Shown: positions 1 through 14,416 of the stretch, piece after piece
Layout: every line of letters starts with the position of its first letter
Position numbering within the stretch: position 1 is the stretch's first letter
DNA from: a virus
Lineage: Duplodnaviria > Heunggongvirae > Uroviricota > Caudoviricetes
Direction: 5' to 3' (one strand)
IMG/VR virus record: IMGVR_UViG_2623620506_000007
Location: 1 to 16,606 of that record
DNA: 16,606 nt
Made by a program: the position numbers and the translations under genes
Notes under the pieces: model-generated
What the model saw: the letters and a program-made list of their open reading frames with translations, nothing else
Told to the model about the DNA's origin: nothing
Databases searched by the model: none

Positions 1-84
1 ATGGCGGGTTATTTGTCCTGGTTATTCCCCCGTTGTAAAATCTCTCCTAAACTTAACGGTACGGCACCACACTTCGGGGATGAA

Positions 85-276
85 ATGTTCGCGCTGGTAC
101 TTTTTGTTTGCTACCTGGATGGCGGTTGTGAAGATATTGTTGTGGATGTCTACAACACGGAACAGCAGTGTCTTTATTCTATGAGCGATCAACGGATCCG
201 CCATGGCGGTTGTTTTCCGATTGAGGATTTTATAGATGGTTTCTGGCGACCTGCACAGGAGTACGGTGATTTTTAA
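85..276 (+). CDS. yebW: Small conserved protein, YebW-like (63 aa from the internal ATG at 85)
   Basis: ORF 1..276 in the track; the internal ATG at 85 gives a 63-aa product. It is convergent with pphA, which matches the yebW-pphA arrangement I recall from E. coli K-12. Identity rests on synteny and recalled size, not a search. Confidence 0.4.
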   Translation: MFALVLFVCYLDGGCEDIVVDVYNTEQQCLYSMSDQRIRHGGCFPIEDFIDGFWRPAQEYGDF

Positions 277-933: not shown

Positions 934-1060
934 CAATATTTTCCTCCCGCGCTAAAGATCACATAATCTTAACAAGAATGTTAAAAAACGCTGGACTCAG
1001 ACAGTAGAGTGTGTGTTATGGTTGACTATAAAGTCAGCGAAGGGAATGCTTCTGGCTTTT

Positions 1061-1093
1061 AACAGATAAAAAGAGACCGAACACGATTCCTGT
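1061..1093 (-). ncRNA. sdsR: 3'-terminal fragment of sRNA SdsR/RyeB (terminator half plus U-tract); putative att core
   Basis: The minus strand reads ACAGGAAUCGUGUUCGGUCUCUUUUUAUCUGUU, which matches the 3' end of SdsR as I recall it. The 5' half of the terminator stem that should follow (CCGAACAC) is replaced by CGUAAAC, so similarity stops near 1094. The rest of the sRNA gene is absent. Confidence 0.4.
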
Positions 1094-1104
1094 TTACGCC
1101 CCAA

Positions 1105-1155
1105 TCAATAAAAACCCTTTAAATTCATCGTCATAATCCATAAAACCCTTCAAAA
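1105..1155 (+). repeat. Two direct copies of ATAAAA(A)CCCTT(T/C)AAA about 31 bp apart; candidate integrase arm-type sites
   Basis: caATAAAAACCCTTTAAAttc at about 1108-1123 and ccATAAAACCCTTCAAAAac at about 1140-1155, in non-coding DNA just inside the putative att junction. Confidence 0.3.
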
Positions 1156-1386
1156 ACAACGATGCAATACTTACCATTGCGTTCTTTCAAGATCAAACTT
1201 TTGCCAATCTATTCGAGTGCGCGACGAGTAAATTTCGTGGCGTCATAATCGTTGATTTAATTATCGCGCATTTGCAAAACTATGCGCAGCTCCTTCCAGA
1301 AATCACCTCGGCTTGTTTACAGCCACCCCGACCGCCGGCACAATCGCCACCGATCTGTTTGTATGATTTATGGTGCGCACCGCCTT

Positions 1387-2655
1387 TCAACGGACAATCA
1401 ACAAATCAGAAAATCTTGTCGTATATCGAGGCGACAGCATTTCCCTTTTCATTTGCCACTGCTGCTGAACGCCCTGGCCAGCAAAGTAAATCGTTCCCCT
1501 ACCGTCTTTGGCATTAAGATTATCCAGCAACTCCATGAGCTTCTCGCTGCCTGCCCGCGGCGCGTTCTCATCAAAGAGATTAAGCTGAGCGACACCCTGA
1601 CTGAAGAAGTCGCCAAGCATGACGCCGGCTTTCTGATACCGATGGCCGTCTCGCCAGATTTTGTCCAGGCACTTTACCGCCGCATTGATTATGTCCCGGC
1701 TGTCCTGCGTGGGAATAAGAAGCTTAATTGATGCACTGTTGCCATAGTAGGGTTCATTAAGGGCAAAGGGGCTGGTCTTCACGAAGGCTGAGATAAAGCG
1801 GCAGTACTGATGCTCACCGCGCAGTTTCTCCGCCGCGCGTGCAGCGTAGCTGCAGATAGCCTGGCGCATCTGCTCATAATCGGTAACCCGCTCGCCAAAA
1901 GAGCGGGAGCAGACAATTTCCTGTTTCGCCGGCGCAAACTCCTCCAGTTCAAGGCATGGCTCGCCGCGCAGTTCCCGCACGGTACGCTCCAGCACCACAT
2001 TGAAGTGTTTTCGGATAATCCATGTGCCCTGCTCTGACAGGTCCAGCGCGGTTTTAATGCCCATTGCGTTGAGCTTTTTGCTGATGCGCCTGCCGACGCC
2101 CCAGACATCCTCCACGGGAACGAGAGACATTAGCCGACGCTGGCGATCGACGTTCGACAAATCCACTACGCCGCCGGTCTGCCGCTGCCATTTTTTCGCA
2201 GCGTGATTAGCAAGCTTCGCCAGGGTTTTGGTCTGGGCAATGCCGACGCCCACGGTAAGATGTGTGTTCTGCAAAACCGTAGCGCGAATTTCCCTTCCAA
2301 AATCTTCCAGGTTCCGGCAATTCCGTACGCCAGTGAGATCGCAAAAGGCCTCATCGATTGAGTATATTTCTACGCGAGGGCTCATTTCCTCGAGCGTTGT
2401 CATTACACGCTGGCTCATGTCCGCATACAGCTCATAATTGGAACTGAAGCAGACCACGCCGTAGCGACGGAACAAATCTTTCTGCTTAAAGAAAGGCTCG
2501 CCCATTTTAATGCCCAGCTCTTTCGCCTCCGCAGAACGGGCAATAACACATCCATCATTGTTAGAAAGCACGACCACCGGCCGCCCTTTCAGGTCTGGTC
2601 TAAATACCGTTTCGCAGGATGCGTAAAAAGAATTTACGTCACAGAGCGCGAACAT
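1387..2655 (-). CDS. umuC: UmuC, catalytic subunit of error-prone DNA polymerase V (Y family), 422 aa
   Basis: From the ATG at 2655 the product starts [22 protein letters not shown] and runs full length with the beta-clamp motif QLNLF. It is very similar to enterobacterial UmuC from memory. The track start at 2670 is a longer alternative; the ATG at 2655 overlaps the upstream stop as TGATG. Confidence 0.95.
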
Positions 2656-2930
2656 CACATCACCGGGCAATCATCAAAGTCAGTCGGTTCGCCAGAATGC
2701 GTTAAGATACCGACCAACTGAACATACTCCAGTGATTCCCCTTCAATGGCCTCACCTTCTTCAGTAATCAGCGCATTCCCAGCTTTATACGCATATTGCT
2801 GGCGACCGCAAAACCATATCAGCAATGTGACGCTGGCGTAAGCATGTCTCTCGCACTCTTCTGGAACGTCTAACATTTCGATATTAGGTAAGCTACCGCA
2901 TACCTCAAAGTTCTCTGTGTAATCAATCAT
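2655..2930 (-). CDS. Small acidic 4-Cys protein (91 aa) in the position normally held by umuD; function unknown
   Basis: ATG at 2930 with AAGGGG 7-12 nt upstream, LexA box and promoter directly upstream, and stop overlapping the umuC start (TGATG). No S24 peptidase hallmarks (no GDSM-type serine, no TVKK-type lysine), and it is too short for UmuD (about 139 aa). The other two frames are full of stops, so this is not a frameshifted umuD. Confidence 0.65.
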
Positions 2931-2994: not shown

Positions 2995-3591
2995 TTACAC
3001 TTCTGGTGATGATGGCCAGTTGATCTGAGGAGCCGTCGAAGTATCGACTCCCTCGAGCGCATCGAGATAATCAAGCCATGCGTTATACTTCGCCTTTTCC
3101 GGATCATTCAGGCGGCCCATAGCTGCTTTGCCGGGCCACTGCTTACTGTTCATAAACTCATTTGCCTGATCGATTCTGTCCTGTTTCTCTGCTTCAGCAG
3201 CCGCAACATCAGCAGTATGTTCAGCTACAGTATCGGTTACCCATTTGGTGCCGTCCCACTTATCGTAGGGACTAGAAGGTGTGATGAGGGTATAACCATC
3301 GTGAATCGGCCCGATGTAATCTACGATTACAGCTGATTTGTCAGTGGTTGAATAAACTCTTTTACCGCGATTATCTTGTTTTTGTTCCCAATTACTACCG
3401 TTGAAAACCGCAACTTTTCCGGCAACCTCATCACCAGGATCAATATCTGTTGAATGCCCGGGCATGCTTACACCGATGTTAATGAATTCGTCAGACCAGC
3501 CCATATATTCTGATGTCACCGAATCATAATAAAAACAGCGAATTTCGCCATTTTGTGTTGCTAATCCATTTTCATCAAAAACAGGTTTCAT
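2995..3591 (-). CDS. Tail fiber assembly protein (Tfa chaperone)
   Basis: 198 aa with the C-terminal stretch KYNAWLDYLDALEGVDTSTAPQINWP typical of lambda Tfa / P2 gpG-type chaperones. It lies immediately downstream of the fiber gene, and its start overlaps the fiber stop (TAATG). Confidence 0.8.
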   Translation of the reverse strand: MKPVFDENGLATQNGEIRCFYYDSVTSEYMGWSDEFINIGVSMPGHSTDIDPGDEVAGKVAVFNGSNWEQKQDNRGKRVYSTTDKSAVIVDYIGPIHDGYTLITPSSPYDKWDGTKWVTDTVAEHTADVAAAEAEKQDRIDQANEFMNSKQWPGKAAMGRLNDPEKAKYNAWLDYLDALEGVDTSTAPQINWPSSPEV

Positions 3592-4313
3592 TACTTAGCC
3601 CTCACCAAAAAGTTAAATGCGATGTTACGCGGCCTTGTCTCGACATCCCCTGTAGAGCCTGTCTCAATGATGTAGTTTGTTAACGTGCCACCAGCGTCCG
3701 CACCAACAACGTACTGCCCAGATGTAGGGTCAAATCCTGTCGCCCCCCAGGTCTTTTCAAATCTATGAGTGTGTGCTTTTAAAGAGTCCGCCTGTGCACT
3801 TAACAACGCCCGGCCGCTATCAATCCCGCGGCCATCATCCCAAACACGCAGAAATTCTCCACGTGCTTCAGTTAGCGTTAGCCCAGGAAATACCAGGGCA
3901 AGTTTTGGGTAGGTTGAAGCTGAAAATGTAGCGCCGTTAAACTTCAGAAACACCATATCTGCCCATTCGGTCATAACGGTATTAGGCATTGCTGACGATG
4001 GCCAGAAGAATGGAATACCAATGGCAGGCGCACCCGCCTCTAAGCGCAGGTTCTTGATAAGCGCATTCGTGAATTTTGTCACCAGGCCATTGACGTCTGC
4101 ATTGTCCAGGGCATCAACGCCGGAGTTGGCAATAAACTGTCCCACTACCGCTGCGATAGTAGTCGCTTGGCGAAGCGCTTTATTTACTTGTGCGCTGGAC
4201 GCTTTGCCTGCAGCAAAACCAGACAGCAACGCGGGTAGCGCTTCCCAGCCAGCCTGTGGAGTTACATTAGCGTTAGGATCAAGCGCGAACGCTTTAAAGT
4301 TGTTTGTTGCCAT
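3591..4313 (-). CDS. Tail fiber protein with tail-collar-type domain
   Basis: Contains EARGEFLRVWDDGRGIDSGRALLSAQADSLKAHTH, which resembles the phage tail-collar / fiber motif. The ATG at 4313 (MATNNFKAF...) is preferred to the track start at 4331. Only about 240 aa, which is short for a fiber. Confidence 0.7.
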   Translation of the reverse strand: MATNNFKAFALDPNANVTPQAGWEALPALLSGFAAGKASSAQVNKALRQATTIAAVVGQFIANSGVDALDNADVNGLVTKFTNALIKNLRLEAGAPAIGIPFFWPSSAMPNTVMTEWADMVFLKFNGATFSASTYPKLALVFPGLTLTEARGEFLRVWDDGRGIDSGRALLSAQADSLKAHTHRFEKTWGATGFDPTSGQYVVGADAGGTLTNYIIETGSTGDVETRPRNIAFNFLVRAK

Positions 4314-4993
4314 CAGAATAATACCCCCCATGCGCCGGTATCAAAACCGCCGATATATTCGTTATCCATATCAAAACCAAAGAATTTTGAGCCTTCGGAG
4401 GGTGTTTCAACCGAAGGCATTTCAACATCACCAGCCCATACGCCAGCTGCTTTAACGGTGAGATAACCCTGCTTGATAGCGGCAATCAGTTCGAGTGACA
4501 CATCCGAAATATCGGTCTCCGGGAATACCCAGACCGAGATCGTCATGTCCTGGTTGTCAACGATCTGCATCTTCAGGCCCGAACCCACCGTGGCAGTGTC
4601 AAGAATGTCCGGAAGCGAATCGTTACGCCCGTCCCAGTTGTTAATAGCGATTTTTGCTTTCAGAATAGTGCGATAGGTATCATCGCTAAGCGTCGTATAG
4701 CCGGAGTCAGGATCATATGGCCCCTGCCATACGCCCTGGTCATATCCGAGCCCCTCCGTGTCCCAGCTGAAATAAACGCCACTTATCGGCTGGCTGACTA
4801 TACGGCTACGTCCAATCCAGAGTCCGAGAATATCGAGCTGCACGCCAACAGCCGTATCGATGTCAAACGCACCCACCAGACCCCTTGTGGCTGACGTGAT
4901 ATCAATCAGGGGACGGGTACTCAGGTCGATGTGATCGAGGTATTTCGGCTTAGTGGCGTGGTAGTTAGTGATTAAATCCGTGTACCTGCTCAT
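4313..4993 (-). CDS. Baseplate / tail protein, DUF2612-like (e14 YmfQ-like)
   Basis: 226 aa between the J-like gene and the fiber, the position held by YmfQ-type proteins in e14/SfV-like tails. Start overlaps the J-like stop (ATGA). Family assignment is from position and general character, not a search. Confidence 0.5.
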   Translation of the reverse strand: MSRYTDLITNYHATKPKYLDHIDLSTRPLIDITSATRGLVGAFDIDTAVGVQLDILGLWIGRSRIVSQPISGVYFSWDTEGLGYDQGVWQGPYDPDSGYTTLSDDTYRTILKAKIAINNWDGRNDSLPDILDTATVGSGLKMQIVDNQDMTISVWVFPETDISDVSLELIAAIKQGYLTVKAAGVWAGDVEMPSVETPSEGSKFFGFDMDNEYIGGFDTGAWGVLF

Positions 4994-6189
4994 GACGTCA
5001 CCGTGATAACGATGTTTGCCGGTTTACATGAAGCTGATTCGTCGTAGGCTATGATTATGTTTGCCGATGCTACGGATCCTGCTGATTTACCGATGAGTAA
5101 TTCCTGGATGTCGTAATAACGCGCGCTACCGCCGCTGACCACCCCGAGGTTGGCAGGTGAATAAATGCGGCTCAGCAGCACCGAATCACCGATCGTCAGA
5201 GCGTTGATGTAATCCGCAACGGCCTGCTGAATCGCCTTCCCTATTTGTGATGTGTAACCTGCGAAAGCTTTCAGCGTTATATGTCCGTAAATAGGAACAT
5301 CCGTTGACCGGGAAAAGCGAATCACATGGGGATTACCGTATTTATCCGGCACCGTGACGGCTGTCGCACCATACGTTGACACCCCCTGCCCCTTATTGCC
5401 CCTGATGGCCTGGGCGATTTCAGTCAGATCGCCGCCATCCACGATGGCAGAGATAGAGTGTGGCGGCAGCCCATTACTGTCGGTCGTGCCGGTATCATTC
5501 TCGTAGAGCTTGTGACGTGTAACCCCTGCAACGTTCACTATCGCACCGTCCACGCCTTCAAACGGCGTGATGGAGGGTAGCGCGACGCTCTGCCCCTGCC
5601 GGGTACGCAACTCTGCATCGGTTTCCGCCGGGGAGCCGACGGTGGCCGCCGCCGGGTTAGTTACCGAAGTCCAGCCGCGCGTCGGTGTGTTAATGGTCGT
5701 GACCGTTCCGGACAGCGCGGCCACTGCGCCGCTATTTGAGCAGGTGGCAGTGACCGTCGCCGTCCCGTCTAAACCAATTACCACTGAGGCCGGCATGTTC
5801 CAGACCAGGCCATTCTTATCCCTGACGGAACCATTTGAAATGGTCGTCCCGGCCGCGCCGCTAAGCAATAAATCAACCGTTGAGTTGGTAGCCGTTCTCC
5901 TTTTGATACCGTTTATTTTTACGTTCTTGCTCAGCCCTGCGCCATAACCGGTGGCGGGCGAAAAGCTGTTGTAAACAGCAATGGCCGTGTTATTAGCATC
6001 GTGAATAGCCAGGGCCACCAGAGCAACCATCTGCCCGTCTTTGCTGTCAGGATTCAGATAAGCATCGCTGCCATATATCTGTTTAAAGTAGTTGGTCAGG
6101 GTGTCCAGTATTGTCTGGTAATCAGGCGCGCTGATCCCCTCAGCGGTTACCGTTGCCGATAAGCCGAGCGTGTCCAAATTGAGGGCCAT
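4990..6189 (-). CDS. Baseplate J-like protein (P2 gpJ / Mu gp47 family)
   Basis: 399 aa, Thr/Gly/Ala-rich, in the canonical position after the gp25-like gene and directly abutting it. Confidence 0.75.
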   Translation of the reverse strand: MALNLDTLGLSATVTAEGISAPDYQTILDTLTNYFKQIYGSDAYLNPDSKDGQMVALVALAIHDANNTAIAVYNSFSPATGYGAGLSKNVKINGIKRRTATNSTVDLLLSGAAGTTISNGSVRDKNGLVWNMPASVVIGLDGTATVTATCSNSGAVAALSGTVTTINTPTRGWTSVTNPAAATVGSPAETDAELRTRQGQSVALPSITPFEGVDGAIVNVAGVTRHKLYENDTGTTDSNGLPPHSISAIVDGGDLTEIAQAIRGNKGQGVSTYGATAVTVPDKYGNPHVIRFSRSTDVPIYGHITLKAFAGYTSQIGKAIQQAVADYINALTIGDSVLLSRIYSPANLGVVSGGSARYYDIQELLIGKSAGSVASANIIIAYDESASCKPANIVITVTS

Positions 6190-6543
6190 TTATGCCTCGC
6201 TGGTAAGGGTGGTTTGTCCGTAGATAGTGTTTATGGTGGCTGTGAACGTAACCCGGCGTGTCGTGCTTTCATTCACGGTATCAAAGGCCAGGATGGACAG
6301 AACGCCAGGCGTGGTGCTGATGCGATCCCTGATCGCAAGGTTATAAACCTCAGGCCTTTGCTTTCCCAGAACAGACTGGATATAGGGTGTGCCCGCGGTC
6401 GTGTCCAGAAACCACTGGCCCTTCCACAGTTCAAAGCGAGTTTTTACGGCCTGGGCCACGCACTCAGGGGAGTTGATCAGGAAAGTATCATCGCCCTGGC
6501 CGAAGGTGTAGTCTCCGTCTTCGTCTTCGCGTCGGTATCGCAT
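6190..6543 (-). CDS. Baseplate wedge protein, GPW / gp25-like
   Basis: 117 aa between the spike and J-like genes. The segment AQAVKTRFELWKGQWFLDTTAGTPY fits the gp25/GPW pattern as I recall it. Confidence 0.5.
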   Translation of the reverse strand: MRYRREDEDGDYTFGQGDDTFLINSPECVAQAVKTRFELWKGQWFLDTTAGTPYIQSVLGKQRPEVYNLAIRDRISTTPGVLSILAFDTVNESTTRRVTFTATINTIYGQTTLTSEA

Positions 6544-6545
6544 AA

Positions 6546-7199
6546 TTACCCCCCCAGTGGTTTCGTATTGCTGCCGCCGCTTTCCACGCCGCCATGCGTA
6601 TGCTTATCAACCATTGAGCCATCCACCAGCTGCAGGCGGCCGTCAGGCAGAATTTTCAAACCGTTGAGGTTAAAACCTCCCGGCGCAGTTCCCGTTATCG
6701 CTCCGGTTGAAGGATTAAGACTCAACCTGGTACCACCGTCGTCGCTGCGCAGTTCAACCGCACTGGTACTGATGCCGCTGATTTTCTTTGCCTGCGACTG
6801 CGGCCCCACTATGGCAAACGCATCACTCAGGTCATGCTGGCGCGGGTCAACCGGTTCCTGTACCCCGCCGCTCTGCCACCAGAAGTCGATGCAGCGATCC
6901 GAGAAGACCAGGAGGCATTCGTCACCGGACTTTACCGGGAAAGTTAAAGTGCAGCCGCCGCCGCGGGGAAACACCACCGGAACGTCTGGCAGGATCGGTA
7001 TCTCCTCAGAAACCAGAGCACCATCGTCGCCGAGCCGCTGACCATAGATGGCCGGCTGCACGGTGCATGTCACTGTTTCAGGGTCAAAGGACTGGATGAT
7101 CCCCGGCAAAGCCACGCGCAAGCTGCCGAAAATGGCGTGGCGATGCGCCTCAAGGGTCTGCGATTCGTTGCCGTCCTGCGCGCGGGCTGATACTGGCAT
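6546..7199 (-). CDS. Baseplate spike / assembly protein V-like (Mu gp45 / P2 gpV type)
   Basis: 217 aa with a Gly-rich C-terminal tip carrying HTH (VDKHTHGGVESGG), as in the metal-binding apex of gpV-type spikes. GGAGA lies 7-11 nt upstream of the ATG at 7199. Confidence 0.65.
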   Translation of the reverse strand: MPVSARAQDGNESQTLEAHRHAIFGSLRVALPGIIQSFDPETVTCTVQPAIYGQRLGDDGALVSEEIPILPDVPVVFPRGGGCTLTFPVKSGDECLLVFSDRCIDFWWQSGGVQEPVDPRQHDLSDAFAIVGPQSQAKKISGISTSAVELRSDDGGTRLSLNPSTGAITGTAPGGFNLNGLKILPDGRLQLVDGSMVDKHTHGGVESGGSNTKPLGG

Positions 7200-7210
7200 A
7201 GTTTTCTCCA

Positions 7211-7240
7211 GGCAATAAAAAACCCGCCGTAGCGGGTTTG
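7211..7240 (-). terminator. Rho-independent terminator for the minus-strand transcript
   Basis: Minus strand reads CAAACCCGC-UACG-GCGGGUUU followed by UUUUUUAUU: an 8-bp GC-rich stem with a 4-nt loop and a U-tract. It sits 16 nt after the stop at 7256 and directly upstream of the spike gene RBS. Confidence 0.7.
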
Positions 7241-7255
7241 CGTGAAAAGGTGATT

Positions 7256-7576
7256 TTATATGTCTTTTTTAAGTACTAACTGGCAGTCATCCTTGGTTAA
7301 TCCCAAAACTTTTGCCGACTCCTCATAACCGCAGGCGGTTTTCACTCTCCTGAATCCGAGCAAGGCAAACTTATCACCTTGGGTTTCCATGAGATGTTTT
7401 TCGTCCCCACCTTCTCTTCTTGCGAAGCCTGCAGCTTCAAATCTTGATGCTTTTGATATAGCCACATGAACCGGGAAGTTTTCATCCAGATCGGGATGTT
7501 TTTTGAAGAAGTCAGCCAACGTTCCAGCCGTACATGAAAATGAAGCCAGGATGATAAAAACAAGCAGTCCTTTCAT
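7256..7576 (-). CDS. Small exported protein (106 aa, N-terminal signal peptide, Cys-containing); moron gene 2
   Basis: N-terminus MKGLLVFIILASFSCTAG is hydrophobic and signal-like, with no canonical lipobox. Local GC is lower than in the flanking tail genes, and the terminator follows. Confidence 0.55.
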   Translation of the reverse strand: MKGLLVFIILASFSCTAGTLADFFKKHPDLDENFPVHVAISKASRFEAAGFARREGGDEKHLMETQGDKFALLGFRRVKTACGYEESAKVLGLTKDDCQLVLKKDI

Positions 7577-7581
7577 GATAG

Positions 7582-7911
7582 TTACCCATTAGCACTACAG
7601 TTATAAGTCCCAAAAACTCGCGGAGCGTTCATATTTGCCCTAAGCGCTTCAACATTCAAAAAAGCCTTGCCGTCACGCTTAATCAGTTCATAGCCATATG
7701 CATACCCATCAGGGGCAGGGGACAAAACCATCTCAAGCTTCATGTTGGAATAGTCGCCTTTCGCCTTCAAAAAAGTAACTTTTTGAGTGCTGGTCACCAC
7801 CCCGTTTATTGTCGTTTCGCCTGACTCGTTGGCATCAACTAGCCATTTACCACACTTTAACCCCGAGGCATGACTAATGCCTGCAGCCAGTAGCACCAAG
7901 ATACCTAACAT
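7582..7911 (-). CDS. Small exported protein (109 aa from the ATG at 7911, signal peptide with SHA-SG cleavage-like site); moron gene 1
   Basis: The track ORF 7582..8028 overlaps the hub gene by 110 nt. The internal ATG at 7911 gives MLGILVLLAAGISHASG..., a typical signal peptide, and starts 7 nt after the hub stop. Low-GC segment. Confidence 0.55.
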   Translation of the reverse strand: MLGILVLLAAGISHASGLKCGKWLVDANESGETTINGVVTSTQKVTFLKAKGDYSNMKLEMVLSPAPDGYAYGYELIKRDGKAFLNVEALRANMNAPRVFGTYNCSANG

Positions 7912-7918
7912 CCTAATG

Positions 7919-8992
7919 TTAACCGCCACCTGGAACTCCCCTTGCGATTGCAGAGCTCGATAATAAATCCTTCGCCCCGCGCGCCATACACATGAGGTCC
8001 ATATACCATGGATTTCCCCTCGTATCACCGGTGTAGCTGATTGACTGAACTATGTAAACGCCATCAGTTGCCACACTGGCGGGCTGCGCAATAGTGCCGC
8101 CAAGGGAAAGGTTACCATCATTGCTCGACTCTGTGATCCTTGACTGTGATCTTTGAATTTCGTCGTTGGGCAGCTGCGAACGATAGACTGATGCCTGGTC
8201 CAGCTGGATCAGGCCATTCACACGGATGTTTGGGTTGATGAGACAGCGAACATTGACGCCGGCGCCCATGGTTTGCTGGGGCATGCCGACCAGTCCCGTT
8301 TCACTACTGAGCACGCTCGCTTCATGAAGGTATTTATTCTCAGGCACCATTTGCAGCTGGCCGTCGACAAATTGCCAGTTAGCCTCGCACTGCGCCGCCA
8401 GGTTGCTCATGTAGTCGCGCGTTGCGCCGAAGAAGACGCGACCACGTGGCATGACACGGTCAGGAAACTGCACGGTGATGCCCTGGGTGATGCCGTAAGG
8501 CGAAAAGTCCTTCATCAGAAGTGAATGCACGTCGGCAAGCTTATATCCTGCCGCCAGGCTACCGGACGATACGGCTTCATTGAACGCCTTATGGCCATCC
8601 ACCGACTGAATTAGCGTAAAAATATCGGTAGGATTATCGCGCCCGGTTATCGTAAAACGGATCTCTCCATCAAAAATAACCCCGTAATTCTGCCCGCGCG
8701 TCTGGCCGGTTTGCTCAGATGAAATCTCGGTAACCTGCCCAACCTCACTTTCGGTAACCGTCGGCGCCAGGCCGTTATACCCGGCTATGATGGTAATGCG
8801 AGAAAACTCATCCCCCGTAATCCGGGTGATTGTGTCACGCTTGAGGTTGTAAATTTTAAGCGTCGCCACACGTGGCCACATCGAGTTAAACCAGTCGATT
8901 GCGAAGGTAACTTTAAAGTCCGACAGGGATATTCCGTTCCCCTTGTCGTTCAGAAGCCGCAGTTCAAAATGGCGATTCCAGTTAATAGTCAT
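7919..8992 (-). CDS. Probable baseplate hub protein (P2 gpD / Mu gpP-like)
   Basis: 357 aa in the position that follows the tape measure and small tail proteins and precedes the spike in Mu-like tails. The call is based on gene order and size only. Confidence 0.45.
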   Translation of the reverse strand: MTINWNRHFELRLLNDKGNGISLSDFKVTFAIDWFNSMWPRVATLKIYNLKRDTITRITGDEFSRITIIAGYNGLAPTVTESEVGQVTEISSEQTGQTRGQNYGVIFDGEIRFTITGRDNPTDIFTLIQSVDGHKAFNEAVSSGSLAAGYKLADVHSLLMKDFSPYGITQGITVQFPDRVMPRGRVFFGATRDYMSNLAAQCEANWQFVDGQLQMVPENKYLHEASVLSSETGLVGMPQQTMGAGVNVRCLINPNIRVNGLIQLDQASVYRSQLPNDEIQRSQSRITESSNDGNLSLGGTIAQPASVATDGVYIVQSISYTGDTRGNPWYMDLMCMARGAKDLLSSSAIARGVPGGG

Positions 8993-8995
8993 GCG

Positions 8996-9301
8996 CTATT
9001 CCTGAACAAAATAAAGATGGCTCGAGGCACCAAGGTTTGTTTTCGTCGGGTATTCAGGGGCGCCGTTGTCTGTCATAACCACCAGCGCGCCAGATATCCC
9101 CAGATCCGGATACTGAGCCAAAAGGTTAACTCCCGGCACCAAAGGAACACCCATTAACAGAGGTTGCGCGCCGCTATCCATCACGTCCATTATCCAGCCG
9201 GCATCATCGCGCCACAGCACGCGGAGCGTATAGCTTACGTCGCCCAGGGTGATGCGAAACTCCTGGTTATCGGGAATCATAGGTATCTCATTAACGCTCA
9301 T
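8996..9301 (-). CDS. Tail / baseplate protein, function unknown (101 aa)
   Basis: Translationally coupled on both sides: ATGA overlap with the upstream gene, and its stop lies 3 nt from the hub start. Confidence 0.5.
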   Translation of the reverse strand: MSVNEIPMIPDNQEFRITLGDVSYTLRVLWRDDAGWIMDVMDSGAQPLLMGVPLVPGVNLLAQYPDLGISGALVVMTDNGAPEYPTKTNLGASSHLYFVQE

Positions 9302-9876
9302 GGTCCCCTCGCAAAATCAGCTATTTTCTGAATTACAGATGAACTGCTGGTCGGCACCAGAGATTTCATCCCTGTATTTTGTACTGGCGCAGTGCTGACC
9401 CCTTCCTGCATGTTGGCCTTATCCGTAACAGTGATGCTCTGCGTATCAGACATGATCACTTCCCGGAGCGTCAGAACGCATGACAGCACATTTTCGCTGG
9501 TCCGGTCCGTGGTGACCTCGATAGCGCGTATCAGCATATTGCTGTAGGTGCGCTTGCCGGTGACAACATCAAACGGCACCCGGGATTGTTGCAACTCCAG
9601 CAACTGCTGATAAATCTCCCTCGGGCTCTCGCCAACCCGCAAGCCTATGCTGGACAGATTCACCAGGTCGAGTACCGACCCGCCGCCGGCAAATCCGCAC
9701 TCCATAGTGACCTCACTGGCGCGCTTATAGGCGTGGTCGTTTATAGCGGCGCCAAACTCCACCGGATGTTCAGTAATTTCCAGAGCATCAACATGCTTCT
9801 CCGATACCACCACGTCAGGCACAAAAATACCTATTTTCCGAGACTGCAGCCGGAAGATGGCCGACAAAATATCCAT
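9298..9876 (-). CDS. Tail protein, function unknown (192 aa), directly after the tape measure gene
   Basis: Its ATG at 9876 overlaps the tape measure stop (ATGA). Confidence 0.5.
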   Translation of the reverse strand: MDILSAIFRLQSRKIGIFVPDVVVSEKHVDALEITEHPVEFGAAINDHAYKRASEVTMECGFAGGGSVLDLVNLSSIGLRVGESPREIYQQLLELQQSRVPFDVVTGKRTYSNMLIRAIEVTTDRTSENVLSCVLTLREVIMSDTQSITVTDKANMQEGVSTAPVQNTGMKSLVPTSSSSVIQKIADFARGP

Positions 9877-11864
9877 CAGTAGACCCTCGGTTGTAGCTGC
9901 TGAGTGAGACGGGAGTTAACGCCGGATTGACGATCGGCAACCTCCCGGCCAGTGGATGCCGGGTCGCTCGCGCCGTAAATGTTGATGTTCGTTTCCTGGC
10001 TAATCTGAGCTGGTGCGCCAGCCCCCACTCCAGCAGCCATAGTTACCAGTTCGCTTGGATATGGGTTGCGTCCGTTTTCATGGTGGATAATCCCATTCAT
10101 GAGTGATGACAGCACCTGAGGATCTTTCAGGTTCAGTGCGGTATCTGGCGCGACACCGAGTAATTTAGAGAGCTGCGAAATATACGCCTCAGTGTTGTTT
10201 TCACTATCTGGTGCCCAGGTTGAGATGATTTCACTTAGTGTCTGCAAAGGCTTGCCCGTTGTTTTGCCTTCAAAGTAACGCATCAACTGCCGTGCCATTG
10301 CTTTCAGCCCATCAAATGCAGAGCCAAATTTGGCAAATCGCCCTCCTGCCCTCTCTAACTGGGCGCCTTCCTGCCCTTTGAAATCGAGGTTGCCTGGGTT
10401 GTTATTTCTGATGCCACGAGGCAAAGCTGATTGAGCGTGCTGATCTGGGTCTTCCTCACCAGTAAACCATCTGCCAATGCTTCGCGGATCAAAACCAGTC
10501 CGGCTCTTAATCCACTCGGCGGTATTATTCGCGCTATCCGAAACAGCCGGCAAAGCATCGGGATTATCTCTTCCCTGCGCCAGCAGGTTCTTGCCGATCG
10601 CATAAGCATCAGACCACCGGCCCTCGTTGATGGCGTTAATCAGATCGCCAATCATCTTGATCATCTTGCCAAACTCACCGAACTGCCGGGTAAGATTTTC
10701 GATGTCGCCTTTAAGGGTCCAGTTTTTGAGGTTGATATTGAGCAGCTTAGCGATTTCAACTCCTATCGCCTTCACGGAATCCCGCAGCTCGGCCAGCGAT
10801 TTCAGGGCAGCCTCTATTTCTGGCTCCCATTTATCCCAGGGCAGCAGGCTTTGACCGCCTTCTTTCCAGGTTTTGTAGTCGTCGTATAGCGCGAACAGCG
10901 CCGAGCCTAGCGCGATTACGATACCTATCGGCGATTTGAGGAACTCAGTGTTAAGCAACTGCCAAGCCGAGACCAGCCCGGACACAAGCATGATCAGCTG
11001 CTGTATATCGGGCGGCAGTTTTTTGAACCACTCAATCAGGCCACCTACCGCCTGCGAGACGCGCCACGCCATCTGGGTAATGACATCAGCAGCAAAGAGC
11101 ACCCCCTTCACTATCTTCGTGACCACGCTCTCTATCTTCGGCCAGTTCTCCAGCATCTGCTTGCTGAGATTGTTCAGCGTGCCGCTCAGGCCGCCGGCCA
11201 GATTCGAGCCAACCTTATCGCGCAGGATCCCCAGTAGCGAAACGAAGTTGCGCATGGAGGTCATGAACTTGTTGGACTGCTGCGCGGCCTTGTCAGCATC
11301 AAAGCCTGTCTTCTGCATCATCGACTGGTATTCAGCCGTGAAGCCGGACATTCCGCGCCGCATTGCCATCAGCGTGTTTTCGTCAATGCCCAGCATCTGC
11401 GCGAACTGGTTGGCACGATAATAGGGCATGGTGCTGAGGCGCTGGCCGACGCCGGTGAAGATAGCCGACATGTCACGCATCTGTCCGGAAGCGTCCCGGG
11501 TCTGCACCCCAAGGCGGTTCAGGAAGCCTTCGGCTCCGGGATTGCTGCGCATGAAGCGTGCCAGGCTCTCCAGTGAGTTCTGGGCAGCCTCGGCGCTGGA
11601 GCCGGTTTGTGAGGCAGCGTAGCCAAGTGCCTTGATGCCGTTGACCGATGCCCCGGTGCGTTCCGCGGCCCAGTAGAGTTTATCCAGGCCGCTGGCGATC
11701 GAGGCAGTGAGGCCCACGATGGCCAGCCCCGTTGACTCAACCACGGCCCCCAGTTTTACGACGTTTGCAGCCACACCTTTGAGCGTGGCTTCAAATTTCG
11801 CCTGGCCGGCGCCATCAATGTCGAACCCCAGAGAGACCAGGTAATCACGGATAGTATCAGCCAT
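9876..11864 (-). CDS. Tail tape measure protein (662 aa)
   Basis: Position after the chaperone, size, and Ala/Gly/Gln-rich helical sequence. There is a hydrophobic segment at about residues 290-327 and a distinct motif-rich segment at 483-605 (RGIRNNNPGNLDF ... HHENGRNPYP). GGAG lies about 13 nt upstream of the ATG at 11864. Confidence 0.85.
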   Translation of the reverse strand: MADTIRDYLVSLGFDIDGAGQAKFEATLKGVAANVVKLGAVVESTGLAIVGLTASIASGLDKLYWAAERTGASVNGIKALGYAASQTGSSAEAAQNSLESLARFMRSNPGAEGFLNRLGVQTRDASGQMRDMSAIFTGVGQRLSTMPYYRANQFAQMLGIDENTLMAMRRGMSGFTAEYQSMMQKTGFDADKAAQQSNKFMTSMRNFVSLLGILRDKVGSNLAGGLSGTLNNLSKQMLENWPKIESVVTKIVKGVLFAADVITQMAWRVSQAVGGLIEWFKKLPPDIQQLIMLVSGLVSAWQLLNTEFLKSPIGIVIALGSALFALYDDYKTWKEGGQSLLPWDKWEPEIEAALKSLAELRDSVKAIGVEIAKLLNINLKNWTLKGDIENLTRQFGEFGKMIKMIGDLINAINEGRWSDAYAIGKNLLAQGRDNPDALPAVSDSANNTAEWIKSRTGFDPRSIGRWFTGEEDPDQHAQSALPRGIRNNNPGNLDFKGQEGAQLERAGGRFAKFGSAFDGLKAMARQLMRYFEGKTTGKPLQTLSEIISTWAPDSENNTEAYISQLSKLLGVAPDTALNLKDPQVLSSLMNGIIHHENGRNPYPSELVTMAAGVGAGAPAQISQETNINIYGASDPASTGREVADRQSGVNSRLTQQLQPRVY

Positions 11865-12102
11865 TATTCTGGGCTCTCCATTTGGCTACAAGCGCGTCGT
11901 TATCGTCACGCATATCGAGGTAATCGTTAAGCAGCGCGATGCGGCACAGGTCCACTGCACCGCTGTCGAGGTCTTTCTGATCGAGGTTAAAAGCGAGCGC
12001 CGGACGCAGGATGTAGTCTTCCCCGCCCGGCATCGTATTGAAGGTTATTCCGCTGGCGGGGTGTTCGTCTCGCTGGTAGGGAGTCCTTGCAAAAAATTTC
12101 CC
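11857..12102 (-). other. -1 frame extension ORF of the tail assembly chaperone, reached by a putative programmed frameshift
   Basis: Frame-0 sequence CUG GGA AAU UUU UUG holds overlapping slippery heptamers G_GGA_AAU and U_UUU_UUG (plus 12090-12102). The -1 frame is then open for about 69 codons through the gap to a TGA at 11859..11857, overlapping the tape measure start. The gap is otherwise unannotated. Confidence 0.45.
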
Positions 12103-12470
12103 AGCGAATCGGCGACCACCCGCGCCACAAGCTGCAGCATCACGAACAGGTCGATATCATCAAAGGCCATGGTGCCCTGCTGGCACACCGGCACCCAGGC
12201 GCTCATATGCTTGCGCGCTACCACCTGCAGGCAGGGAAAAAGGATCGCATTCACGTCGTCATCACTGAGGCCGGAAACGGCGCCAGCGATCTTCGGCAGA
12301 ATACTTTCCATCGCGCCTTCGGTGTCTTTGGCATTCAGCTTCGTCTGGATGTTACGGAAGTCAGAAACCAGACCCGCCAGAACCGGCAGCAGCTTGCGGG
12401 ATACCTTTAGCTGTTCGAAAACGCTTAACTTAGCGATACGGTACTGCTGATCCTTGATAGTAATTTCCAT
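12045..12470 (-). CDS. Tail assembly chaperone (lambda gpG / P2 gpE analogue)
   Basis: 141 aa between the tube and tape measure genes, acidic C-terminal half, with a frameshift-accessible extension downstream. Confidence 0.7.
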   Translation of the reverse strand: MEITIKDQQYRIAKLSVFEQLKVSRKLLPVLAGLVSDFRNIQTKLNAKDTEGAMESILPKIAGAVSGLSDDDVNAILFPCLQVVARKHMSAWVPVCQQGTMAFDDIDLFVMLQLVARVVADSLGNFLQGLPTSETNTPPAE

Positions 12471-12473
12471 GAA

Positions 12474-12914
12474 TTAATACTCCCCCAGGAACGGGTCGAT
12501 TTTGATGCAGTCGAACACCCAGGCCACCGTCCCGCCCTCTTTGGCGTTCTGCCAGTCGGGGTGCTTCTGAAAGGCGCCGCCGCGCGCGGTCATGATGTCG
12601 CCAGATGCAGTGTTGCGGAACACAAAGACGTTATTGCCCCACAGCGCGGAAGACTGACTTTGTGCGTTGTAGGCCAGGGACAGCTTTTTGTTTACCGGCG
12701 AGGTTTTCAGGAGGTTAACGGTTACCGTTCCAGCCTTGCCGGCGTGCAGGGAGTGCATGCCCTCACCGTCAGCGCCGATCGTCATGGTGTTTTTATTTTC
12801 AACCATGGCGACGGTGATGCCCTCTTCTGAGTTGGCAGAACCGGCGCCGAGGTCAATCACCCCGGTGGGGCCAGTCATTGACCCCGTGATATCCAGAAAA
12901 GAATAAGTGCTCAT
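12474..12914 (-). CDS. Tail tube protein
   Basis: 146 aa immediately downstream of the sheath gene, typical size and position. G-rich RBS before the ATG at 12914. Confidence 0.7.
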   Translation of the reverse strand: MSTYSFLDITGSMTGPTGVIDLGAGSANSEEGITVAMVENKNTMTIGADGEGMHSLHAGKAGTVTVNLLKTSPVNKKLSLAYNAQSQSSALWGNNVFVFRNTASGDIMTARGGAFQKHPDWQNAKEGGTVAWVFDCIKIDPFLGEY

Positions 12915-12925
12915 TCAGTGCCCCC

Positions 12926-14416
12926 TTAGCGCACCACGTCGATTAATACATCAGCGAAGTGGATAGCCCCCGCCAGTTTGGTTGCTACCTGAATCACCGG
13001 CGCCTTACGCGCTTCACGATCTGCCTGCGCCTGGGCGTTGAGCGGGTTCGCATAAACGTAATAGCCTTTGGTCAGCATATCGCCTGATGTCAGCTGTCCG
13101 ACGTCACCGCCGTTCCAGATCCCCGGTGCCACCAGACCGTTGTTTACAGACTGGTCCATAGACTGTTCGACATTGGTCACCAGGCGCGTCACGCCCGCTT
13201 CGGTCTGCGGGATTTTGGTGGTTGAGGTGTAAAGCAGGTTCCAGAGGTTGTTCTGGACGTAGTTCTGCAGCCAGTCGAGACCGTGGCGCTCGTCGAAGAA
13301 GTCGCCGTTCGACATCACGCCTTCCTGGATGATGGCGGTATCGTTGGCGTAGCGCACAAACACGTTGCAGTTTTTTGCCTTGAGCGTGTCGGCCTGCTGC
13401 GCGGTGATCGTTTCGGCAGTGATGCCCGGCTCCTGCTTGAATTTCAGGGTGATGGTGGTGTTGTTACCCAGGAAATTTACGGTGAACGCGCGACCGAAGG
13501 CGGAAGCTGCCGCATATGGCACCTGGCTGTACTGGCAAAACGTACGGCCATAACCAGCAGCTTTCAGCCTGTAGGCAATATCCGTGGTGCTGGTTGAGTC
13601 CAGGACCTCGGTCGCCGCAGTTGTCACACCGTACACCCGGGAATCGCTCGCAGAGCCGATCAGGGCAGATACATCGATATGGTCCTGGTCCGTCATTGCA
13701 GTATCGGCGATAACCAGTCCATACCAGTCGGCTGAGTAGTTCAGCGCTGTATTCACCGACGGCAGCACTGAGGATGAGGCATCCTGGCCGTTTGACACGG
13801 TGGGGTTATGCGCTGAGTCAATGCCCAGCAGCGGCGCCAGGTCAGTGCCTGTGCCGGCAGCAACAGGAATACCGATCGCCGAGGAGGCCCCGGTAGTGGA
13901 AGATGTCACCACAAACTGATTCGAGCCGGCCACGTAGGAAACGGTGGTACCGGTAAGTTTCGCAGTGACGGCGGTCGCTACTCCGGCCAGATCGGTCACC
14001 GCTGACAGGTCGATACCCGTTACGGTTTTAACAGTGCCGTCCACCGAGATCTTAATCGCACCATCGTCGATCGCGGTAAAGTTTGCTATCGCCTGCTCTG
14101 CAGAGGTCAGTACAGCACCAGTGAGCTTGCCGGCCGTTGCCGGGCTGGAGGCGCGTTCCAGTTTGCCGATATACAGATCGCGGGGCTGCGGCGACTGCTG
14201 GAAGTAAAGGTTTGCCGCCTTGTACTCTTCAGCGGTAGTGCCAAAGTCAGTGGCGACACTTTCGATATCCTGGTAAAGGCGCATCACTTCTGGGGCAGTG
14301 ATTACGTCGGCGGTGCCGAGAACCAGCAGCGCGCCGAAGTTACGCCCGGCCGCCGCGCGAACGGCGAGCGCGACCTGCACGCGAACGACGCGTGATACAG
14401 ATAAGCCGTTAGGCAT
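12926..14416 (-). CDS. Contractile tail sheath protein
   Basis: 496 aa, Thr/Ser/Ala-rich with a conserved-looking C-terminal region, followed by tube, chaperone and tape measure genes. GGAGA lies 8 nt upstream of the ATG at 14416. Confidence 0.85.

What the first reader, a model, noticed from the sequence alone, without database searches (positions are those of the whole stretch)
7205..7919. Low-GC moron with its own terminator, encoding two small secreted proteins, inside the baseplate operon
Two short ORFs with classic N-terminal signal peptides (MLGILVLLAAGISHA-SG and MKGLLVFIILASFSC...) sit between the hub and spike genes. The segment is visibly more AT-rich than its neighbours and ends in a strong intrinsic terminator directly upstream of the spike RBS. 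Exported proteins have no obvious role in tail assembly, so this looks like a gene cassette acquired after the tail module formed. Candidate roles are periplasmic superinfection exclusion, lysogenic conversion, or inhibition of a host or competitor envelope factor. Neither protein resembles anything I can name. Downstream baseplate and fiber expression must depend on read-through of the terminator.
Basis: partly seen in the sequence, partly recalled or inferred. Interest (0 to 1): 0.65.

Follow-up and report, generated by a model that had tools for sequence, protein, structure and literature searches.

The report
Exported-protein cassette in prophage baseplate hotspot
Two small exported proteins of unknown function sit in an accessory-gene hotspot between the baseplate hub and spike genes of an E. 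coli prophage; the first is a near-universal fixture of this tail lineage, the second is occasional cargo, and the terminator belongs to the phage backbone.

Summary
On the minus strand there are two real genes, A (7929/7911-7582) and B (7576-7256), both with Sec-type signal peptides. The segment has low GC, and a strong hairpin plus T-run (7239-7214) sits 20 nt before the spike ATG.

In 97 related loci the hub and spike genes are never adjacent; the gap is 385-2592 bp.
- The first slot after the hub holds an A-family gene in 89 of 97 loci. In 7 others it holds an unrelated signal-peptide protein.
- A overlaps the hub stop codon and has its own Shine-Dalgarno site, so it is a lineage-wide fixture rather than a recent insert.
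- B is sporadic cargo, present in 11 of 97 loci. Other loci carry PD-Lambda-1, PDC-S42, Phd/Doc, Mrr-like nuclease or EACC1 genes in the same space.
- The hairpin is present in about 96 of 97 loci whatever the cargo, so it is a backbone element.
- A 93%-identical E. coli prophage has exactly 7239-7956 replaced.

A is predicted to be a disulfide-closed 8-stranded beta-barrel and B a helical bundle. Neither matches any characterised protein. My best guess, about 35% likely, is envelope-level superinfection exclusion. This is a new variant of a known kind, of moderate interest.

The parts
7919..8992 (-). Baseplate hub gene (357 aa). It forms the left flank of the hotspot. Its last ~38 nt lie inside the swapped segment.
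   Evidence: Pfam PF22759 E217_GP41, 1.4e-6. It is 93% identical to the E. coli prophage hub. DNA homology to L002 ends at 7957.
7239..7956 (-). The exchanged cassette, defined by comparison with the closest E. coli prophage. It contains A and B.
   Evidence: blastn of the window against L002 gives matches at 4048-7238 and 7957-10016 at 92-93% identity, with nothing in between. Megablast of 7150-8000 against 5426 E. coli genomes matches only 7150-7238.
7960..7987 (-). Weak sigma-70-like candidate promoter (-35 ATGGCG, 16 nt spacer, -10 TATTAT) just upstream of A. It scores only 8/12, lies inside hub coding sequence, and has not been validated.
   Evidence: Custom relaxed scan. The standard scan finds no promoter on this strand.
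7936..7943 (-). Shine-Dalgarno sequence AAGGGGAG for ORF A, 6 nt upstream of GTG 7929.
   Evidence: Read directly from the sequence.
7582..7929 (-). It is predicted to be exported and cleaved after SHA (residue 21). The mature protein is ~10 kDa, an 8-stranded beta-barrel with invariant Cys26 and Cys111. Family phrog_3443.
   Evidence: PHROG match 4.3e-34. 656 homologous clusters, all in Enterobacterales, with no Pfam family. AF2 pLDDT 86.8. First slot after the hub in 89 of 97 loci. Signal-peptide features hold across the family.
7867..7929 (-). Predicted signal peptide of A (residues 1-21, MAVNIRMLGILVLLAAGISHA).
   Evidence: The AF2 model shows helix 5-15 followed by a low-confidence linker.
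7256..7576 (-). ORF B, 106 aa, starting 5 nt after the A stop codon. It is predicted to be exported and cleaved after CTA (residue 17). The mature protein is ~10 kDa, a helical bundle with invariant Cys82 and Cys98. Family phrog_13007. It is sporadic cargo.
   Evidence: PHROG match 6.6e-19. 6 close homologues and 18 representatives at the 50% level. AF2 pLDDT 91. Present in 11 of 97 loci, always after the first-slot secreted gene. All homologue contexts checked lie between hub and spike.
7526..7576 (-). Predicted signal peptide of B (residues 1-17). Cys15 is not conserved, so B is not a lipoprotein.
   Evidence: Alignments A2 and A4. Heuristics.
7214..7239 (-). Intrinsic-terminator-like hairpin (AAACCCGC-TACG-GCGGGTTT) plus T-run. 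It is the conserved right border of the hotspot and a backbone element.
   Evidence: Terminator scan. Fold z = -3.9. Present within 130 nt of the spike gene in 96 of 97 loci, including 24 of 24 single-gene gaps. The core stem is ACCCGC/GCGGGT in 81 of 97 loci, and the variants keep pairing through compensatory changes.
6546..7209 (-). Spike gene (217 aa) with its GGAG ribosome-binding site at 7206-7209. It forms the right flank.
   Evidence: Pfam PF18352 N-terminal domain, 5.5e-43 (family name masked in tool output), and Apex motif PF18946. It is 97% identical to the E. coli prophage spike.

Best explanation
The segment is the content of a conserved accessory-gene hotspot between the baseplate hub and spike genes. 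The tail module is an E217/Pam3-type contractile tail in a temperate enterobacterial phage, here a prophage next to pphA/yebW in E. coli.

The hotspot has a fixed frame. On the left is the hub 3' end followed by a 'slot-1' gene for a small exported protein, nearly always family A. On the right is an invariant terminator hairpin 16-25 nt before the spike start codon. Variable cargo sits between them. In this window the cargo is B.

Shown or directly read from sequence:
- A is translationally coupled to the hub gene, and B follows A by 5 nt.
- Both carry cleavable Sec-type signal peptides and one invariant Cys pair each. They are therefore most likely soluble, disulfide-bonded periplasmic proteins of about 10 kDa, a beta-barrel and a helical bundle.
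- There is no room for a promoter between the hairpin and the spike ATG.

Inferred:
- During lytic growth the whole unit and the downstream baseplate genes are transcribed by terminator-resistant late transcription. Relatives such as phage Mulock have a lambdoid genome organisation.
- In the lysogen, any transcription that starts inside the hotspot stops at the hairpin. Cargo can then be expressed without switching on tail genes.

Inferred function (about 35% likely): A, its non-homologous slot-1 replacements, and probably B act in the periplasm against incoming phages. That would be superinfection exclusion at the stage when the hub/spike/tape-measure complex crosses the envelope, or protection of progeny from ejecting into lysing cells. 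The gene would be kept next to the puncturing-device genes, as in other tail-linked exclusion genes.

The confidence value of 0.4 is for the whole statement including the function. The architectural part alone I put at about 0.85.
For: Architecture:
- The hub-to-spike gap is 385-2592 bp and never 0 in 97 loci.
- A is in the first slot in 89 of 97 loci. In 7 others the first slot holds an unrelated signal-peptide protein: C9 (183 aa) or C20 (80 aa).
- One identical Salmonella A protein is followed by three different cargos.
- The swap relative to L002 falls exactly at 7239-7956.
- The hairpin is conserved.
- Across loci, A has lower GC than the hub in 78 of 83, and the cargo has lower GC in 70 of 70.

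Cargo elsewhere in the same slot includes recognised defence genes: PD-Lambda-1 (4.7e-82), PDC-S42 (1.7e-36), an Mrr-like nuclease, Phd/Doc and EACC1.

Export: signal-peptide features and invariant Cys pairs hold across both families. The structure models are confident.

A recurring link between secreted proteins and the puncturing device: a 209-aa B-like secreted protein is the first gene after the spike gene in a distant lineage whose hotspot lies between spike and sheath initiator. Serratia aquatilis carries three A paralogues in one gap.

The lysis cassette lies elsewhere in the related phage Mulock, which has cI/cII/O/P/Nin genes.

Precedent: HK97 gp15 is a moron inside the tail operon, next to the tape-measure gene. 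It is expressed from the prophage and excludes superinfecting phages depending on features of their tails. Cor proteins block FhuA-dependent phages (PMC3594210).
Against: - No functional evidence exists for A or B.
- No convincing prophage-active promoter was found. Tight coupling to the hub gene points to late expression rather than lysogenic expression.
- A identity does not co-vary with the spike C-terminus or the variable tape-measure module, as a target-matched excluder might. Spearman rho is 0.15 and 0.26, against 0.56 for the adjacent hub.
- A has many invariant polar and basic residues. That fits a conserved ligand better than an arms-race interface.
- Antitermination is inferred only. 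The Mulock gene at the lambda Q position has no Pfam match.
Confidence: 0.4

Rival explanations
1. A is a lytic-cycle helper, made only late with the tail proteins and exported to the periplasm. It might condition the envelope for release, block receptors or entry sites so that progeny are not lost on lysing cells, or counter a host periplasmic or membrane defence. B would be unrelated cargo.
For: - A's start overlaps the hub stop, and A has its own SD.
- No sigma-70 promoter was found.
- A is near-universal in the lineage, which is more typical of a phage function than of a host-benefit moron.
- The family has conserved polar residues.
Against: - Slot 1 can be filled by non-homologous secreted proteins, and A alleles are swapped between near-identical tails (43-48% identity against 93-97% for hub and spike). 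This is typical of conflict genes.
- A has systematically lower GC than the structural genes.
- The lysis genes lie elsewhere.
Confidence: 0.3
2. A and/or B are lysogenic-conversion factors. Like lambda Lom and Bor, they would alter host envelope physiology, stress resistance or host interaction rather than phage infection.
For: - Both proteins are exported.
- The location is a prophage accessory hotspot, and the GC is low.
- Morons with such roles are documented (PMC3594210).
Against: - A is tied to one tail lineage across many genera with different lifestyles, including Escherichia, Salmonella, Serratia, Pantoea, Pectobacterium and Yersinia.
- Neighbouring cargo consists mainly of anti-phage or toxin-antitoxin genes.
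- No similarity to known virulence or envelope factors was found.
Confidence: 0.15
3. A is a periplasmic inhibitor or binder of a peptidoglycan hydrolase, in the manner of PliC/MliC or T4 Spackle. Its target would be the muralytic activity that incoming tails carry on the tape-measure protein.
For: - Relatives' tape-measure proteins carry an SLT domain.
Against: - The PliC hits rank 37th or lower, below streptavidin-like hits and other generic barrels.
- A does not co-vary with the variable tape-measure module.
- The window's own tape-measure protein has no recognisable hydrolase domain.
- B does not resemble Spackle.
Confidence: 0.1
4. A is a structural or assembly component of the baseplate, and its hydrophobic N-terminus is not a signal peptide.
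For: Fixed position between the hub and spike genes, and translational coupling to the hub.
Against: - The signal-peptide architecture is canonical across the family, with an AXA-type site.
- Two invariant Cys join the barrel's first and last strands, which is typical of an oxidising compartment.
- Non-homologous secreted proteins can replace A.
- A diverges far faster than the hub and spike proteins.
Confidence: 0.05

Closest known systems
HK97 gp15 moron (superinfection exclusion gene inside a tail operon)
   Same: - A small envelope-targeted protein encoded inside the late tail operon, next to genes of the DNA-delivery apparatus.
- GC differs from the neighbouring genes.
- Followed by a terminator.
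- The proposed role is to block entry of incoming phages (PMC3594210).
   Different: - gp15 is a YebO-like inner-membrane protein with its own promoter and is absent from close relatives.
- A is a soluble exported beta-barrel, is present in ~92% of relatives, is translationally coupled to the hub gene, and has no evident promoter.
- There is no sequence similarity.
- Function has not been tested here.
Prophage hotspots of anti-phage systems (P2/P4 hotspots, Rousset et al. 2022, PMC9122126)
   Same: - Conserved flanking genes enclose highly variable, low-GC cargo.
- The cargo includes known defence systems: PD-Lambda-1, PDC-S42, Phd/Doc and an Mrr-like nuclease.
   Different: - The phage lineage and site differ: between the hub and spike genes of an E217/Pam3-type tail.
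- The hotspot has a resident secreted-protein gene at its left edge and an invariant terminator at its right edge.
- I found no description of this site in the papers searched. That search is limited.
Cor (phi80/N15/HK022) and Llp (T5) receptor-blocking lipoproteins
   Same: Small exported proteins encoded next to tail or receptor-binding genes that protect against superinfection (Cor: PMC3594210; Llp: my own knowledge).
   Different: - Both are outer-membrane lipoproteins.
- A and B lack a lipobox. B's Cys15 is not conserved, and A's Cys26 lies after an SPase I-type site.
- There is no sequence similarity.
T4 Spackle (periplasmic inhibitor of the tail lysozyme gp5) and PliC/MliC lysozyme inhibitors
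   Same: Small periplasmic disulfide-containing proteins. Spackle is helical like B, and PliC/MliC are 8-stranded barrels like A (fold classes from my own knowledge; PliC hits).
   Different: - Spackle is an early gene and is not tail-linked.

Membership tests
Moron (Juhala/Hendrix definition as summarised in PMC3594210) | Extra DNA between two genes that are adjacent in related phages | tested here: not met
   The hub and spike genes are never adjacent in 97 loci; the minimum gap is 385 bp. A is present in 89 of 97 loci. B alone behaves as extra DNA and is absent in 86 of 97.
Moron (Juhala/Hendrix definition as summarised in PMC3594210) | [quoted passage not shown] | tested here: met
   A is 0.46 and B is 0.43, against 0.53 for the hub and 0.59 for the spike. 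The same pattern holds across loci.
Moron (Juhala/Hendrix definition as summarised in PMC3594210) | Own promoter | tested here: inconclusive
   No match of 9/12 or better on the coding strand. There is only an 8/12 candidate at 7987-7960 inside hub coding sequence. Consensus scans cannot exclude a promoter.
Moron (Juhala/Hendrix definition as summarised in PMC3594210) | Own terminator | tested here: not met
   A terminator is present, but it is a backbone element. It occurs in about 96 of 97 loci whatever the cargo, including all gaps that hold a single gene.
Moron (Juhala/Hendrix definition as summarised in PMC3594210) | Expressed from the repressed prophage | not testable with these tools
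   Needs RNA-seq, 5' RACE or reporters in the lysogen.
Prophage accessory/defence hotspot | Conserved flanks with variable gene content across related elements | tested here: met
   42 distinct gene arrangements in 97 loci between the conserved hub and spike genes.
Prophage accessory/defence hotspot | Cargo includes recognised defence systems | tested here: met
   PD-Lambda-1 at 4.7e-82 (5 loci), PDC-S42 at 1.7e-36, Mrr-like/PDC-S02, Phd/Doc and EACC1. A and B themselves have no significant PADLOC hit.
Sec-exported periplasmic protein (A and B) | N-terminal signal peptide with a positive n-region, a hydrophobic core and a small-x-small cleavage site | tested here: met
   Heuristic only. Net-positive n-region: 108 of 120 (A) and 20 of 20 (B). 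Small-x-small site: 120 of 120 (A) and 19 of 20 (B). SignalP was not available.
Bacterial lipoprotein (Cor/Llp-like) | Lipobox with an invariant Cys at +1 | tested here: not met
   B's Cys15 is replaced by A, S or I in homologues. A's first Cys follows an AXA site by 5 residues and sits in a K/R/H-C-G context.
PliC/MliC lysozyme inhibitors | Specific fold or sequence match to PF09864-type barrels | tested here: not met
   [not shown]
T4 Spackle | Fold match | tested here: not met
   [not shown]

The most novel reading that the evidence does not exclude
Family A (about 650 clusters across Enterobacterales), its non-homologous slot-1 substitutes C9 and C20, and B would together form an unrecognised class of periplasmic proteins. 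They would be genetically welded to the puncturing device of contractile-tailed temperate phages and would block, or otherwise control, the periplasmic step of tail-mediated genome delivery. The hub-spike junction, closed by an invariant terminator, would then be a dedicated expression platform that lets prophages display envelope and defence cargo without leaking tail-gene expression.
Probability: 0.3. Interest if true: 0.7.

Novelty: new variant of a known kind. Interest (0 to 1): 0.5.

Why it matters
If A is an entry-stage exclusion or envelope factor, it would add a large, widespread protein family with a confident predicted fold and no known relative to the short list of periplasmic anti-phage mechanisms. 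It would also give a handle on how contractile tails cross the periplasm.

Whatever A does, the hub-spike junction is a defined, easily recognised hotspot: the hub 3' end, a secreted gene, cargo, then the ACCCGC...GCGGGT terminator. It already contains PD-Lambda-1, PDC-S42 and toxin-antitoxin genes. Several recurrent cargo families there (C2, C6, C7, C9, C11, C14) had no Pfam or PADLOC match and could be mined as candidate defence genes.

The conserved in-operon terminator also raises a testable question about how late tail genes are transcribed in these phages.

Tried and rejected
- **Family searches on A and B.** Pfam, NCBIfam and PADLOC gave no significant hits. PHROGs gave only unknown-function families.
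- **Structure comparison.**
  - BFVD Foldseek for A gave nothing at E <= 0.001.
  - PDB profile sequence searches gave nothing.
  - The afdb50 library was unavailable.
- **Lipoprotein idea for B.** Rejected because Cys15 is not conserved.
- **Co-variation test.** I asked whether the A allele tracks a possible target. Spearman rho was 0.26 for the tape-measure variable module (aa ~460-618) and 0.15 for the spike C-terminus, so there is no specific signal. The best correlate is simply the adjacent hub, rho 0.56.
- **Promoter search.** Nothing convincing was found.
- **Rfam on 6900-8200.** Only sub-threshold chance hits over the hairpin.
- **Q-like antiterminator in phage Mulock.** The gene at the lambda Q position has no Pfam match, so antitermination stays an inference.
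- **Literature.** Four searches found no description of these families or of this hotspot.
- **B in isolated phages.** tblastn against 50,697 phage records gave no match.
- **Chance-ORF and pseudogene reading.** Rejected on conservation and model confidence.
Full report
**What is in the sequence**

The window is an E. coli chromosome segment. Bases 1 to ~1130 match pphA/yebW at up to 99% and are present in all 5426 complete genomes. The rest is the tail end of a prophage, and all tail genes are on the minus strand.

Pfam identifies an E217/Pam3-type contractile tail. In gene order it contains:

| Gene | Coordinates | Pfam |
|---|---|---|
| Sheath | 12926-14416 | DUF3383 |
| Tube | 12474-12914 | PF11681 (KPP10_Orf10) |
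| Tail assembly chaperone | 12045-12470 | PF21822 (Phage_TAC_15) |
| Tape measure | 9876-11864 | PF10145, below Pfam cut-off |
| Dit-like | 9298-9876 | PF21821 |
| Pam3_gp18 plug | 8996-9301 | PF22479 |
| Hub | 7919-8992 | PF22759 |
| Spike | 6546-7199 | PF18352 plus Apex; the family name is masked in tool output |
| 117-aa protein | 6190-6543 | none here; relatives hit PF10934 Sheath_initiator |
| Baseplate_J | 4990-6189 | PF04865 |
| DUF2612 wedge | 4313-4993 | PF11041 |
| Fibre and assembly protein | 3591-4331, 2995-3591 | none; PF02413 (Caudo_TAP) |

Two ORFs lie between the hub and spike genes.
- **ORF A** most likely starts at GTG 7929. That start has an AAGGGGAG Shine-Dalgarno site 6 nt upstream and overlaps the hub stop by 11 nt. 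Gene callers use this start for the 99%-identical P0001 and its relatives, and it gives the signal peptide its positive n-region.
- **ORF B** starts 5 nt after the A stop codon.

A hairpin AAACCCGC-TACG-GCGGGTTT plus a T-run (7239-7214) ends 20 nt before the spike ATG. The stretch around it folds at -18.9 kcal/mol, z = -3.9. GC is 0.46 for A and 0.43 for B, against 0.53 for the hub and 0.59 for the spike.

**Both are real, exported proteins from uncharacterised families**

A matches phrog_3443 (4e-34) and B matches phrog_13007 (7e-19). Both PHROG families have unknown function. Pfam, NCBIfam and PADLOC give nothing significant.

A profile search finds 656 A-family clusters. All are in Enterobacterales (Escherichia, Salmonella, Serratia, Pantoea, Pectobacterium, Yersinia, Citrobacter and others), and all are annotated as hypothetical or secreted. 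B is rare, with 6 close homologues and 18 representatives among 1.84 billion cluster representatives.

Signal-peptide features hold across both families.
- A has two invariant Cys, C26 and C111, in the first and last strands of the barrel.
- B has invariant C82 and C98. Its Cys15 is not conserved, so it is not a lipoprotein.

AlphaFold2 predicts A as an 8-stranded beta-barrel (pLDDT 86.8) and B as a helical bundle (pLDDT 91.0).

Structure searches give no specific relative.
- BFVD and PDB sequence searches are empty.

**Comparative anatomy changes the interpretation**

I collected 97 loci that contain both hub and spike homologues, from genomes, IMG/VR, phage records and protein contexts.

- **Gap size.** The hub-to-spike gap ranges from 385 to 2592 bp and is never zero.
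- **First slot.** The first gene after the hub, on the same strand, is an A-family member in 89 of 97 loci. In 21 of those loci A is the only gene in the gap. In 7 of the 8 exceptions the first slot holds a different signal-peptide protein, either C9 (183 aa) or C20 (80 aa).
- **B.** It occurs in 11 of 97 loci, always right after the slot-1 gene. Its homologues in Serratia, Erwinia and one further NCBI genome assembly are all at this site.
- **Other cargo.** The remaining space holds 42 different arrangements. They include PD-Lambda-1 (4.7e-82), PDC-S42 (1.7e-36), an Mrr-like nuclease, Phd/Doc and EACC1 on the opposite strand, plus several families with no match.
- **A as a fixed anchor.** One identical Salmonella A protein is followed by three different cargos. 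Serratia aquatilis has three A paralogues and an IS element in one gap.
- **GC.** Low GC is a property of the slot. A has lower GC than the hub in 78 of 83 loci, and the cargo has lower GC in 70 of 70.

**The terminator belongs to the backbone**

A terminator-like hairpin lies within 130 nt upstream of the spike gene in 96 of 97 loci, including all 24 gaps that hold a single gene. The core stem is ACCCGC/GCGGGT in 81 of 97 loci. Variants such as GCCCAC/GTGGGT and CCTCGC/GCGAGG keep the pairing. The loop varies, with UUCG the commonest. The stem ends 16-25 nt before the spike ATG. Sequence upstream of the hairpin is unrelated between loci. The hairpin therefore marks the right border of the hotspot.

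**The window's cassette is a swapped unit**

An E. coli prophage (NZ_CP062811, locus L002) is 92-95% identical to the window from 4048 to 13014. The two exceptions are 7239-7956 and 10017-10473, which lies inside the tape-measure gene. In the first interval L002 carries a different A allele (43-48% identical, although its hub is 93% and its spike 97% identical) plus a reverse-strand EACC1 gene.

None of the 5426 complete E. coli genomes carries the window's cassette at megablast level. In the NCBI genome assembly behind L005, the same A+B pair (90-93% protein identity) is collinear with its flanks at about 79% DNA identity, so there it was inherited together with the tail.

**How it probably works**

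*Read directly from the sequence:*
- A is translationally coupled to the hub gene, and B follows A directly.
- Nothing but a ribosome-binding site fits between the hairpin and the spike gene, so the spike and downstream baseplate genes need read-through.

*Inferred:*
- These are lambdoid temperate phages. Mulock has cI/cII/O/P/Nin genes, a late-region terminator and a separate lysis cassette.
- Late transcription is therefore probably terminator-resistant.
- Transcription that starts inside the hotspot in a lysogen would stop at the hairpin.
- I could not confirm a Q-type antiterminator or a cassette promoter. The only candidate is an 8/12 match at 7987-7960.

*Function is the weakest step.* Several features point to an envelope-level conflict function, most simply superinfection exclusion at the periplasmic stage of tail penetration:
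- The proteins are exported.
- Slot 1 can be filled by non-homologous secreted proteins.
- A alleles are swapped between near-identical tails.
- A paralogues can multiply within one gap.
- The neighbouring cargo is defence-type.
- A B-like secreted protein sits first after the spike gene in a distant lineage.

The precedent is HK97 gp15, which sits next to the tape-measure gene (PMC3594210). I put this at about 0.35.

Against it:
- Tight coupling to a late gene.
- No visible promoter.
- No co-variation with the spike C-terminus or the tape-measure module.
- A set of invariant basic and polar residues that suggests a conserved ligand.

A late-expressed periplasmic helper is nearly as likely, at about 0.30.

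**Comparison with known systems and verdict**

The locus works like a prophage accessory or defence hotspot, and B behaves like moron cargo. The classical moron definition is not met for A or for the terminator, and it is unresolved for the promoter. A and B are not members of the Cor/Llp, Spackle, PliC/MliC or gp15 families.

I rate this a new variant of a known kind. It is a defined hotspot inside the baseplate operon, framed by a resident secreted-protein gene and an invariant terminator, and it holds two uncharacterised exported protein families. Interest is moderate (0.5). Nothing here overturns current understanding, but the A family is large, structurally well defined and directly testable.

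Confidence in the architectural conclusions is high, about 0.85. Confidence in the proposed function is low to moderate.

Noticed in passing
window 10016-10474 (tape-measure gene, aa ~460-618): A second mosaic segment. The internal module of the tape-measure protein (contains RGIRNNNPGNLDF, no Pfam hit) is replaced relative to the otherwise 92-95% identical E. coli prophage L002. Relatives in Serratia and Erwinia have an SLT lytic-transglycosylase hit in their tape-measure proteins (position within the protein not checked).
   Followed up: partly
window 1-1240: The left end is E. coli core DNA (yebW and pphA, up to 99% identity, present in 5426 of 5426 genomes). Matches end at about 1128-1240, so the prophage/chromosome junction lies there.
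   Followed up: partly
window 1387-2930: A umuC-like translesion polymerase gene (IMS domains, 427 aa) is preceded by an overlapping 91-aa ORF with no Pfam hit, possibly a truncated umuD-like gene. Both sit at the prophage end beyond the tail-fibre assembly gene and look like further prophage cargo.
   Followed up: no
L016, L058, L062, L064, L096 (hub-spike gap): Five related loci carry a 420-aa membrane-anchored T5orf172 protein in the same hotspot. It matches PD-Lambda-1 at 4.7e-82. L007 and L056 carry a PDC-S42-like gene, and L011 and L085 carry a TM + Mrr-like nuclease.
   Followed up: partly
L104 1740-6628 (Serratia aquatilis CP173186): The hub-spike gap holds three A-family paralogues (122, 130 and 121 aa), several small ORFs and a Transposase_mut IS element.
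   Followed up: no
L109 4303-9430 (metagenome contig): In a more distant tail lineage the hub and spike genes are adjacent, and the variable region lies after the spike gene. It opens with a 209-aa B-like secreted protein and continues with Mrr_cat, Arc and ORF6N genes before the sheath-initiator gene.
   Followed up: no
L008, L059, L060, L069 (C9); L019, L083 (C20): Where A is missing, slot 1 holds other exported proteins. One is a 183-aa Cys-containing protein (C9). The other is an 80-aa protein with repeated TGTTYC motifs (C20). Neither has a Pfam hit.
   Followed up: partly
window 2995-4331: The tail fibre (246 aa, no Pfam hit) and the fibre assembly gene have low GC (0.51 and 0.45; GC3 0.48 and 0.40). 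They are poorly conserved in relatives, the usual host-range mosaic module.
   Followed up: no
hub-spike gaps of L095, L097, L048 and L015: In these four loci the ORF that carries the A-family match is unusually long, about 190-300 aa. This could be a fusion or extension, or an artefact of taking the first in-frame start codon after the preceding stop. I did not inspect them.
   Followed up: no
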